DNA of 64,000 nucleotides from the NCBI RefSeq assembly GCF_006345805.1, contig NC_043009.1, forward strand, positions 20,336,001-20,400,000. Reading direction: 5' to 3'. The notes beneath the pieces are model-generated. The model ran no database searches. It was not told where the DNA came from and saw only the letters and a program-made list of their open reading frames with translations. Both the position numbers and the translations under genes were made by a program. Position 1 is the stretch's first letter, and each line of letters opens with the position of its first letter. The DNA is from Octopus sinensis. Lineage: Eukaryota. Shown here piece after piece: positions 46,701 through 49,700 of this stretch.

Positions 46701-49700
46701 TTTTGTGTTACAGCTGTAATTATCTCTGAGAAAGCTGGATCATATCACAAACATTATCATTAACTAGAGTCAAGTCTTAACAGCTGTATCACATTATAAT
46801 TTTTGACAGCATAAAACAGTAAAATAATTACAAATACTTTCAGGAAAATAATTAAAATCCTGCTTCTGACGTTGGCAGAACAAAACATAGTCTTTTTTTT
46901 TTATCAAGGATGTTTTAGAATTTAAAGTTCTGAAATATTTTCAACAAGTCTGAATCAATCTTAAAATGGCTAACCTTTTCCATGCACATTTGCAATATTC
47001 CCACCCTTGATGAAACTGCTTTTCAACACAAAGCTTACAAAATGCAGGCACAGTTTTGACAATGCCTTATCTCAGTAATTTCTTTATAAATAGCTTTTGC
47101 TAAGCATCAACACTTTGCTGAGTCATTTGCTAAAAATGCAAGCATACTTTTGAGAGGTTTCATAATAAATAATGTTTTTGTTTAACACAAGAAAAAGCAA
47201 ATATCTTTCTCTAAATACTTCATCAAAAATAGGAAGATATATCCATAATTTCTGACTAAATTTATATACTAAATATTTTATTAAGTTTAAATAGATTAAA
47301 AGTAATTAAAACCTGTTTTTAACAATCATTGTGATCTGACCTTTGTTTTTCTGAATTCATTCCCAGCAAATCGTTGCCATATGTCTGACATGATTGGTGT
47401 CTTTATATTATTGGTTGTTTCCTTTTCTTTCCAGTCTTTTTGAGATTTTGCAGAGTTTATATTGGGCAGTTTATGGCCTTGTCGATCTAGAACACGCACA
47501 TTTGGACGAACCGCACAAACTGACCGAACTGATTGGCAAGCTGATGTTTGGCAGTTACAGTATGATAGCCATTATTATTCTGCTTAACTTACTTATCGCT
47601 ATGATGAGCAATTCCTACCAACTCATTTATGTAAGACTCATTCCTTTGTCTACAACATTTTCATTCTTTACACATCATTTTTTTTCATCACATTTTCATT
47701 TTCATGTTTATGATTACAATTTTACAGTTTTAATGAAATTTTACAGTTTTAATGAAATTTTCAGACGTGTGTGAACTTTTATAACTGCTGTTGCTTTAAC
47801 AATTTCTTTTAAACAGGCAAAATATCAAGTATATTTTTTTTCTTTCAGTATAGATATTTCAGAAAATAAAAAAAATGGAAAATTCTTTACCAGGCTGAAC
47901 TGTTTCAACTCCATCATTTCCAGAACTGTCCAAAATGCCAGCACTCACTAAATCCAGTCATTTGTTGCAATTTCTTTCAAGATTTACCAAGGCAGTTTAA
48001 CCATTTTTCAATTTTATACAGATTTCCAAACCTGACCATTTGGCAAATTCCTAAAAAAAACCTGCTTCTATACAACCTCTGCACCATTTCAGACCAAAAT
48101 AATTTGGCACCAAGAAACTTAATTTCTTGATTTTGTCTCTTTGACTTTAATTACAATTAGAATATAAAAATAGCTAATTAGTTACTGAGATAATTTTATG
48201 AAATATTTAAATTTTAATTTTTTAAAGAATTAATTATAAAATAGTTAGAGAAAATAATTGAGTTTATTCAGTAAGACAGATCTATCAAGTTAAAAAAAGA
48301 AAACATATACTTTCAGTAAAGCAAGGAATGAGTGAAAGTCTTTGATTCACACTTGATAAAAAATGTTATAAATACTATTATATTCACCAGTTTGAAAGTG
48401 ACATAAAGCAGAAGTCTAGAAGTCTAGTTATGATTAAATATATTTAATACATAAGATAATTATGGCTGTCTAGATTTAATGTATGAAGATAATAAATTAA
48501 TATTGGATATATCAATATAGCTGTGATGGTAGATTATTTTGCAAGCAATAAAACTTTTATTATAAATAAAGTCATCACAGATTTTTCTGAAGACATCCTA
48601 TAGTACCATATCTGGTTGGTAATTAGCATCACCTAATTAATTATTTATTTTCTGGTGATATTTGATTCTAAATAGGTATCACAACAAAATCTTATAAGCT
48701 TCATAGAAAATAAGGAATTTAATTATTTACTGGAAGTTTTCCCAAACAATATCCATGATATTCTATGGCAACCTAAATATAAAATAATTTTGTTTATATT
48801 GACCAAACCTTTTTCAATTTTCAGACTGCTAAGAGCAAATATTTAACACTGAAATCACAGAAAAAAATCAGATTGAATATTCTTAGAAATACTGAAGATT
48901 TCTGTAACTTTTTCTTTTCTTTCCAGTCTTTTTGAAATCTTGCAGAGTTTATATTGGGCTTTTTACGGCCTTATAGAATTGGACAACGCTCACTTGGACG
49001 AACCACACAAACTGACTGAGCTGGTTGGCAAACTGATGTTTGGAAGCTACAGTATGATAGCAATTATAGTATTGCTCAATCTGCTAATTGCTATGATGTC
49101 ACTATCATATCAAATGATATCTGTAAGAAAGTCTTTTACTTTCTCCTTATTGATCATAACTTATTCTGCTTCTTTTGCAGTCTTTTTGAGATCTTGCAGA
49201 GTTTATATTGGGCAATTTATGGTCTTATTGATCTGGAAGACGCCCATCTGAAAGAACCTCACCATTTCACTGAGCTTATTGGGAAATTGATGTTTGGCAG
49301 TTACAGTTTGATAGCCATAATTGTACTTCTGAACATGCTAATTGCTATGATGAGCAACTCATACCAAATAATATCTGTAAGAAATACAATTTAAGTCTGC
49401 TCTACCTAAGTTACAGCTTACTGACAGCATGAAGCTCTGACAAGACAAACTCGCCACACAGTCCAACAGTATTTTCACATGGTACACATATAAACCATGT
49501 TAATATTTGTAGTTTCTGCAGTATAGAAACTGTATTAATATTAATACAAGTAAAAGTGCATGTTAGATCTATATTCTATAGTCATACTCCATAGTTGTTT
49601 AGTTGTTAGGCCTTTAATAGAAATCCCTGTCAAATTAGTGGATAGCTGTTACAGTTCAAGACATTTCTAGTAAAGTTATTTGTTTCTTCATCAAAATAGT

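What the first reader, a model, noticed from the sequence alone, without database searches (positions are those of the whole stretch)
47435..49376. Three tandem, mutually exclusive pore/S6 exons: one TRPC gene encoding three interchangeable ion pores
Seen: three paralogous exons of exactly 196 nt, all phase 2 to 0, with intact AG/GTAAGA sites and no stops. They are 53-55/65 aa identical but differ at many synonymous sites, which points to an old duplication under purifying selection rather than debris or mis-assembly. Flanking exons 6 and 8 are single copy. Since 196 mod 3 = 1, including zero, two or three copies shifts the frame; only one-of-three yields the TRP box. The cassette covers the pore helix, selectivity filter, outer loop and the whole S6 gate. 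Established: TRPC channels are tetramers and TRP/TRPL carry the light-activated current in rhabdomeric photoreceptors; pore splicing alters selectivity in TRPM3, but by a different mechanism. Inference: tissue- or stage-specific choice (eye, skin, brain) and mixed tetramers could tune Ca2+ permeability and gating. I know of no described duplicated-pore-exon cassette in a TRPC gene, but could not search the literature.
Basis: partly seen in the sequence, partly recalled or inferred. Interest (0 to 1): 0.95.

Follow-up and report, generated by a model that had tools for sequence, protein, structure and literature searches.

The report
Three swappable pores in octopus TRPC
The octopus gene for the ion channel linked to light sensing in the eye carries three old copies of the exon that builds its pore and gate, and each message uses only one, so one gene can make three slightly different channels; similar duplications seem to have arisen repeatedly in other invertebrates.

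Summary
Real. Three 196-nt paralogous exons (A, B, C) lie between exons 6 and 8 of a complete TRPC (TRP-gamma-like) gene, the orthologue of squid trp-like CAA11261. One-of-three inclusion gives 802-aa proteins identical to NCBI's automated isoforms X1/X3/X2; other combinations truncate. Contigs of one run splice exon 6 and exon 8 to each copy separately; no copy-to-copy joint in 4 runs. dS 1.2-2.8, dN 0.09-0.13. A is 65/65 identical in squid, C 60/65; B is decayed in squid-like relatives and appears frameshifted in one close relative. The filter glycine, LYW motif and gate residues are invariant, and the filter acid stays acidic (D/E/D), so fine tuning is likelier than a selectivity switch. 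Exclusion is probably by premature stop/NMD plus a 58-nt B-C intron. Tandem copies of the same segment also occur in mussel, annelid, nematode and crustacean TRPCs, probably independently. No paper describing this was found; the scan had not noted it elsewhere. It belongs to a known class: duplicated, mutually exclusive ion-channel pore exons. Tissue specificity and currents are untested.

The parts
28417..28737 (+). Coding exon 1 (ATG; ankyrin repeats)
   Evidence: gene model; Pfam Ank
29875..30390 (+). Exon 2 (TRP_2 domain)
31498..31732 (+). Exon 3
35711..35845 (+). Exon 4
38042..38181 (+). Exon 5
41176..41525 (+). Exon 6 (S4-S5), constitutive upstream exon, ends in phase 2
   Evidence: its last 18-30 nt are the loose ends before A, B and C
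47435..47630 (+). Alternative exon 7A (pore helix, filter, turret, S6; residues 567-631); probable default form, 65/65 identical to squid CAA11261
   Evidence: (4 of 4 runs)
48927..49122 (+). Alternative exon 7B; carries F578, E583, L625; lineage-variable
   Evidence: (spliced in 2 of 4 runs)
49123..49180 (+). 58-nt B-C intron; every candidate branch A is 41 nt or less from the donor; the 3' end is conserved in squid-like relatives (62-nt spacer)
49181..49376 (+). Alternative exon 7C; carries K590, H594; 60/65 identical to a squid-like isoform
   Evidence: (spliced in 1 of 4 runs)
49377..49440 (+). Intron flank after C with apparent conservation in squid-like relatives (seen only through translated ORFs); candidate splicing-regulatory element
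   Evidence: inference
61220..61414 (+). Exon 8 (TRP box EWKFAR), constitutive downstream exon, phase 0
   Evidence: its first 24-29 nt are the loose ends behind A, B and C
62383..62424 (+). Exon 9
63092..63370 (+). Exon 10 to stop codon

Best explanation
A mutually exclusive exon cassette, made by tandem duplication of the single ancient exon that encodes the pore helix, filter, turret and S6 of the cephalopod alpha-TRPC (TRP-gamma-like) channel. The triplication predates the octopus/squid split. Each mature mRNA joins exon 6 to one copy and that copy to exon 8 (shown in contigs). Double inclusion or skipping creates an early stop well upstream of the last junction (shown), so such RNAs are probably removed by NMD (inferred). 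B and C are probably also unable to join because their intron is only 58 nt (inferred). A is the default, near-frozen pore; C is a conserved minor form; B is retained in some octopuses and decaying elsewhere. The swap keeps the core filter and gate and changes the outer mouth (583-595), the lipid/DAG pocket (578, 609) and residues beside the gate (625, 629, 631). It therefore most likely tunes lipid/PLC gating, cation block or potentiation and conductance, and changes Ca2+ permeability modestly rather than switching it (inferred; about 60%).
For: Translation and frame tests: one copy gives 802 aa; two or three copies stop at 633 aa, 424-620 nt before the last junction; skipping stops at 581 aa, 188 nt before it. 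Contigs: run X12 has three contigs, each one copy flanked by exon 6 and exon 8 ends; X10 has A and B the same way; X8 and X9 show exon 6-A; no joints among copies. pN is far below pS (Fisher p 2e-9 to 8e-16). A is 65/65 identical in squid against 673/803 for the whole protein, and C 60/65. The cephalopod copies form a starred clade (96/95; 96/96). A gapless match to TRPC5 568-631 maps 578 and 609 to DAG contacts V579 and V610 (PMC7987348), 583 to upper-filter N584, 594 to E595, and the invariant 580/620/624/628 to G581 and the I621/N625/Q629 gate (PMC6656536). The donor-to-branch distance is under the 50-nt steric criterion (PMC5740500).
Against: Contigs drop rare variants, so the absence of co-inclusion is not proven. 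The runs are only guessed to be RNA and carry no tissue labels. No NMD, current or tissue data exist here. About 60-nt introns splice normally in flies (recalled), so the steric step may fail in octopus. No mechanism beyond NMD was found for A versus B/C (docking-site search at shuffle level). B has two residues seen in 0 of 248 distinct non-cephalopod segments (F578, L625) and has decayed elsewhere, so it may not make a working channel.
Confidence: 0.7

Rival explanations
1. Strong version: three fully functional pores with markedly different Ca2+ selectivity, chosen by tissue or stage and mixed in tetramers, doing by splicing what flies do with TRP and TRPL.
For: B changes the residue aligned with TRPC5 N584, probably the equivalent of fly TRP D621, which controls Ca2+ permeation (PMC4164786 passage; the equivalence of numbering is recalled). 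In snail Cav3, turret-only exon swaps change Na+/Ca2+ flux greatly (PMC5379919). Cephalopod alpha-TRPC is eye-enriched and no alpha-TRPC paralogues are reported. Runs differ in which copies appear, though contigs cannot show absence.
Against: The filter residue stays acidic in all three copies (D/E/D), and E occurs there in 22 of 248 other segments. The gate and filter glycine are invariant. B is lost in several lineages. No tissue data.
Confidence: 0.2
2. Only A and C matter. B is a relaxed, dying copy whose occasional inclusion gives a weak, non-conducting or dominant-negative subunit, or has no effect.
For: A degenerate remnant (14-16 of 29 aa) sits 62 nt upstream of C in P0002/P0334/P0335 with a lost GT donor, and a shorter remnant in P0010. 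There is a 1-nt deletion at 48952 in the unspliced contig of relative X8 (14 further indel rows were not shown, so a compensating change is not excluded). The O. bimaculoides entries listed show only A and C. F578 and L625 are unique.
Against: B is spliced precisely in 2 of 4 runs from two organisms. It is intact in a second octopus ORF, P0011. It shows dN 0.10-0.13 against dS 1.2-2.8 relative to A and C. The squid-like remnant also has Leu at 625, so that residue is old.
Confidence: 0.3
3. The copies are an assembly artefact or unexpressed pseudo-exons.
For: None beyond the general risk in repeat-rich assemblies.
Against: Copies differ at 38-44 of 195 nt, mostly at synonymous sites. Each is found spliced. 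A and C orthologues lie in squid-like sequences, including on ENA contigs of the same length, probably one contig (P0004, P0010).
Confidence: 0.01

Closest known systems
Mutually exclusive exons from tandem duplication in ion channels (Copley 2004, cited in PMC3342872; CaV1.2 exons 8/8a encoding IS6, abstract start)
   Same: Same-length paralogous exons, one used per transcript, recurrent convergent origin; exclusion by frameshift/NMD and a short intervening intron (PMC5740500, PMC4165533).
   Different: Here the unit is the whole pore helix + filter + S6 of a TRP subunit, in three copies. Because TRPCs are tetramers of separate subunits, mixed pores are possible in principle.
Protostome Cav3 exons 12a/12b (Lymnaea) and invertebrate NALCN alternative pore exons (PMC5379919, PMC4033012 passages)
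   Same: Alternative (in Cav3, duplicated and mutually exclusive) pore-region exons in invertebrate cation channels, including a mollusc.
   Different: NALCN swaps the filter charge (EEEE against EEKE/EKEE) and Cav3 swaps turret length and cysteines, with measured selectivity change. The TRPC copies have equal length, keep an acidic filter residue, and have no functional data.
TRPM3 pore splicing (PMC12799467 passage)
   Same: Splicing changes the pore-coding sequence of a TRP channel.
   Different: TRPM3 uses alternative splice sites that insert a short segment (recalled), not duplicated exons; different subfamily.
Squid trp-like protein CAA11261 / cephalopod alpha-TRPC / Drosophila TRP-gamma (PDB 9vqq)
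   Same: Orthologue or closest solved relative; the squid sequence uses exon A.
   Different: No alternative pore exons are described in what was read; the 2026 cephalopod TRP survey has 0 main-text hits for 'splic', 'exon' or 'pore'.

Membership tests
TRPC (alpha-TRPC / TRP-gamma-like) | N-terminal ankyrin repeats, TRP_2 domain, six-TM ion-transport domain | tested here: met
   Pfam Ank_2, TRP_2 and Ion_trans above cut-off for all three isoforms
TRPC (alpha-TRPC / TRP-gamma-like) | LFW-type pore motif, filter glycine, TRP box EWKFAR; closest to TRP-gamma/TRPC4/5 | tested here: met
   LYW, G580 and EWKFAR in the translation; best PDB hits TRP-gamma 862 bits, TRPC4 774, TRPC5 762, TRPC3/6 550 or less
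TRPC (alpha-TRPC / TRP-gamma-like) | PLC-dependent cation current; light-activated conductance | not testable with these tools
   Only eye-enriched expression of the gene in two other cephalopods
Mutually exclusive tandem-duplicated exon cluster | Adjacent homologous exons of equal length and phase with intact splice sites | tested here: met
Mutually exclusive tandem-duplicated exon cluster | Each exon joined alone to the same flanking exons in transcripts | tested here: met
   X12 for A, B and C; X10 for A and B
Mutually exclusive tandem-duplicated exon cluster | No co-inclusion in mature RNA | tested here: inconclusive
   0 joints in 4 runs, but contigs drop rare variants
Mutually exclusive tandem-duplicated exon cluster | Exclusion by frameshift and premature stop | tested here: met
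   NMD itself not tested
Mutually exclusive tandem-duplicated exon cluster | Steric exclusion (donor to branch point under 50 nt) | tested here: inconclusive
   Criterion met for B-C (41 nt or less), not applicable to A-B (1296 nt); the octopus minimal intron size was not measured
Dscam-type docking/selector clusters | Competing intronic RNA duplexes | tested here: inconclusive
   Best duplex at or barely beyond 8-shuffle controls in 10 of 10 flank/intron pairs; no cross-species intron DNA for covariation
Selectivity-switch pore exons (NALCN/Cav3 type) | Alternative exons change the filter charge or turret size | tested here: not met
   D/E/D at the filter position, equal length; only turret charge differs
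Selectivity-switch pore exons (NALCN/Cav3 type) | Measured change in ion selectivity | not testable with these tools
   needs electrophysiology

The most novel reading that the evidence does not exclude
The pore-S6 exon of protostome TRPC genes is a recurrent duplication hot spot, with several independent origins (coleoids, mussels, an oweniid annelid, nematodes, crustaceans and unnamed lineages, in more than one TRPC clade) that converge on ultra-short intervening introns. Cephalopods, with a single alpha-TRPC gene, use splice-selected pores and mixed tetramers to set Ca2+ entry and lipid gating differently in retinal, dermal and central cells, in place of the fly's TRP/TRPL gene pair.
Probability: 0.3. 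Interest if true: 0.8.

Novelty: new member of a known kind. Interest (0 to 1): 0.6.

Why it matters
The cephalopod photoreceptor channel is thought of as one protein; surveys count one alpha-TRPC per species and measure it at gene level. If pore choice is regulated, eye, skin and brain could run different channels from one gene. The isoforms differ at only 10-12 residues around the filter mouth, the DAG pocket and the gate, which makes a natural experiment on TRPC lipid gating and Ca2+ permeation. The apparent repeated duplication of this exon across phyla would add TRPC to the channels with convergent exon-level pore diversification. It also explains a class of mis-annotated 'double-pore' TRPC models in databases.

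Tried and rejected
Fourth or decayed copy in the window: none. Duplicated pore exon in the other TRP loci of this genome: none within about 1.5 kb either side in 5 of 5 loci. Docking/selector RNA pairing: nothing convincing; one of 10 pairs beat its 8 shuffles by 2.8 kcal/mol after picking the best window; inverted-repeat output was dominated by a mobile palindrome and microsatellites. U12/U2 incompatibility: rejected, all three donors are GTAAGA. No RNA holder is on record (all 'RNA?' are guesses). Contig depths were not used to rank exons, and missing copies in a run were not read as absence. Only 47300-49500 was laid, so exon 6 and exon 8 partners are identified from loose-end letters, not as joints. 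Metagenome scan: 0 of 80 loci had a second copy, and only 29 of 80 had 1.5 kb on both sides. RNA editing: no A-to-G difference in three near-identical runs, but contigs would hide it. A long alternative C-terminus was not found in 60 kb downstream or by genome search. Pfam found nothing in the suspected retroelement fragment. Papers not held: Liu 2007 on D621, Hatje and Kollmar 2013 on fly MXEs, Chen 2017 on TRPC5; the fly MXE catalogue may bear on novelty. No supplements were read. No structure or complex prediction was run: it would not separate 10-12 conservative substitutions.

Full report
Observation. Each is 196 nt, AG-flanked, followed by GTAAGA and open in one frame. Pairwise identity is 55, 54 and 53 of 65 aa and 151-157 of 195 nt. 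Nei-Gojobori dS is 2.8, 1.3 and 1.2 and dN is 0.10, 0.09 and 0.13 (Fisher p 8e-16, 2e-11, 2e-9). No fourth copy exists in the window. In the genome, 3 of 8 matches are these exons and the other 5 are single distant TRP loci. Introns are 5909 nt (exon 6-A), 1296 (A-B), 58 (B-C) and 11843 (C-exon 8).

The gene. The whole coding sequence lies in the window (28417-63370, ten exon positions). With one cassette exon it gives 802 aa, identical to the proteins NCBI names Octopus sinensis TRP-gamma-like isoforms X1 (A), X3 (B) and X2 (C), so the isoforms already exist as automated annotation. Pfam gives ankyrin, TRP_2 and Ion_trans; the closest solved structures are TRP-gamma, TRPC4 and TRPC5. It is 673/803 identical to Loligo forbesii trp-like CAA11261, which I recall as the squid photoreceptor TRP. 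A 2026 survey places O. bimaculoides TRP-gamma in 'alpha-TRPC', reports paralogues for other subtypes but not this one, and finds it eye-enriched in Sepia and O. maya embryos (PMC13402157, passages). Squid TRP transcripts are also reported in skin (PMC4564192, one passage).

Is it mutually exclusive? I laid 4 of 24 listed runs (four studies, three coded organisms; 'RNA' is the tool's guess) on 47300-49500. In X12, 3 of 3 contigs each cover exactly one copy, preceded by the last 18-21 nt of exon 6 and followed by the first 24-29 nt of exon 8. X10 shows the same for A and B. X8 and X9 show exon 6 joined to A. No joint between copies was listed. Junctions across 6-kb and 12-kb introns can only come from spliced RNA, as no retrocopy was found. 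Contigs cannot exclude rare co-inclusion or show tissue.

How exclusion works. Any second copy is read out of frame and stops at its third codon (633 aa, 424-620 nt upstream of the last junction); skipping stops at 581 aa, 188 nt upstream. These are NMD-type stops (inference; frameshift/NMD is common in such clusters, PMC5740500 and PMC4165533, passages). In the 58-nt B-C intron every candidate branch A lies 41 nt or less from the donor, inside the under-50-nt steric criterion of PMC5740500. Against this, I recall that about 60-nt introns splice normally in flies, and the octopus minimum was not measured. A docking/selector search was at shuffle level. The sequence just before and after C looks conserved in squid-like ORFs while A's flanks do not, a lead that C is the regulated exon.

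Age and fate of the copies. A is 65/65 identical in squid and C is 60/65 identical in a squid-cluster isoform, P0130, so both predate the octopus/squid split. All cephalopod copies form one starred clade. B is less stable. It is intact and spliced here and intact in another octopus ORF (P0011). In squid-like ORFs P0002/P0334/P0335 a degenerate copy (14-16 of 29 aa, lost donor, still Leu at 625) sits 62 nt before C, and P0010 shows a shorter remnant. The remnant is assigned to B by position; identity alone does not separate B from C. The relative X8 shows a 1-nt deletion at 48952 in an unspliced contig; 14 indel rows were not shown, so compensation is not excluded. The O. bimaculoides entries listed carry only A and C. 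An Argonauta model is closest to A (60/65) but diverged.

What the swap changes. The exon aligns without gaps to TRPC5 568-631. Invariant: LYW, G580 (TRPC5 G581) and the gate positions 620/624/628 (I621/N625/Q629; PMC6656536, passages). Fifteen positions vary. 583 (D/E/D) aligns with upper-filter N584 and, by my recall of numbering, with fly TRP D621, the Ca2+ determinant (PMC4164786, passages). 585, 586, 590 and 594 change charge in the outer mouth; 594 aligns with E595 of the lanthanide potentiation site. 578 and 609 align with DAG contacts V579 and V610 (PMC7987348, passages). 625, 629 and 631 flank the gate. Among 248 distinct non-cephalopod segments (related, not independent), F578, L625 and H594 occur 0 times and E583 22 times. 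No copy neutralises the filter acid, so a TRP/TRPL-like switch is unlikely, although snail Cav3 shows that turret changes alone can shift selectivity (PMC5379919, passages).

Recurrence elsewhere. The exon boundaries are ancient: 50 of 60 testable metagenome loci share both (20 of 80 not testable). Mytilus has two copies, used separately in NCBI isoform pairs of three species, with inferred spacers of 24 and 28 nt in mussel-type ORFs. Of 220 long proteins with this segment, 9 had two or more: 6 tandem (Mytilus coruscus, Owenia, Toxocara, Romanomermis, two Penaeus, the last in another TRPC clade), 2 far apart (probable fused genes) and 1 repeat artefact. That set was enriched by a query built from doubles, so it is not a frequency. 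Unnamed ORFs add an arthropod TRP-type pair (about 35-nt spacer, counted by hand), a crayfish-like pair (242 nt) and pairs with 47, 74, 38 and 30 nt. These are inferred from protein models, not DNA, and exclusive splicing is indicated only for mussels. 0 of 80 metagenome loci had a second copy, so duplication is not general. On a 62-row, 65-column tree several pairs group with each other (starred for P0198, P0277 and P0035/P0095); mussel and nematode copies are unresolved. AU tests of shared cephalopod-mussel duplications gave p 0.034, 0.047 and 0.056 (27 rows, groups chosen after the first tree). Independent origins are favoured, but gene conversion between neighbours could give the same picture.

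Literature. Four targeted searches gave 0 papers. One search listed 9 of 9 and one search listed 20 of 54, none on this by title or abstract start. The cephalopod TRP survey never mentions splicing, exons or pores in its main text, and a crayfish TRP survey reports other events (passages). Most subscription journals and the fly MXE catalogue could not be read, and no supplement was seen. Known relatives are CaV1.2 8/8a (listing), Cav3 12a/12b, invertebrate NALCN pore exons, TRPM3 pore splicing and the convergent ion-channel exon duplications cited in PMC3342872. The scan's own notes hold no earlier record of this.

Verdict. A real, old, expressed mutually exclusive pore-S6 cassette in the cephalopod eye-enriched TRPC. 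It is a new member of a known class, apparently undescribed for TRPC, and seems to recur across protostomes. Functional differences are unmeasured and B may be dispensable, so interest is 0.6 rather than 0.95.

Noticed in passing
window 51841-52583: Near-perfect palindrome (about 355-nt arms, 36-nt loop) in the C-exon 8 intron; at least 43 matches at 94-100% identity genome-wide, several as inverted pairs: a young MITE/foldback element that would form long dsRNA in the pre-mRNA.
   Followed up: partly
window 56905-57234: Second long hairpin (162-nt arms, 95% complementary, 6-nt loop) in the same intron.
   Followed up: no
window 63279: Internal GTAAGA donor-like site in exon 10 at the point where squid-like P0130 and bivalve/gastropod orthologues switch to a long alternative C-terminus; the downstream exon was not found in 60 kb or by genome search.
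   Followed up: partly
window 30900-31250: Open frame in intron 2 that looks like a LINE/RTE retroelement fragment by recall; no Pfam match.
   Followed up: partly
P0001, P0339, P0340, P0341, P0343, P0344: Database TRPC models with two pore-S6 segments in a row are probably mis-joined duplicated exons, not double-pore channels.
   Followed up: partly
P0287 (unnamed ORF, 526 aa): About eight degenerate repeats of the S6 end with its donor, apparently a tandemly amplified fragment of a TRP exon.
   Followed up: no
P0009 (unnamed ENA ORF): Bivalve-like pore exon followed after about 30 nt by a frameshifted second copy: another decaying duplicate.
   Followed up: partly
window 47601-49500 in run X8; 47300-47464 in run X9: Unspliced contigs running from A through the A-B intron, B and C, or into A from upstream: pre-mRNA, retained intron or DNA carry-over.
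   Followed up: no
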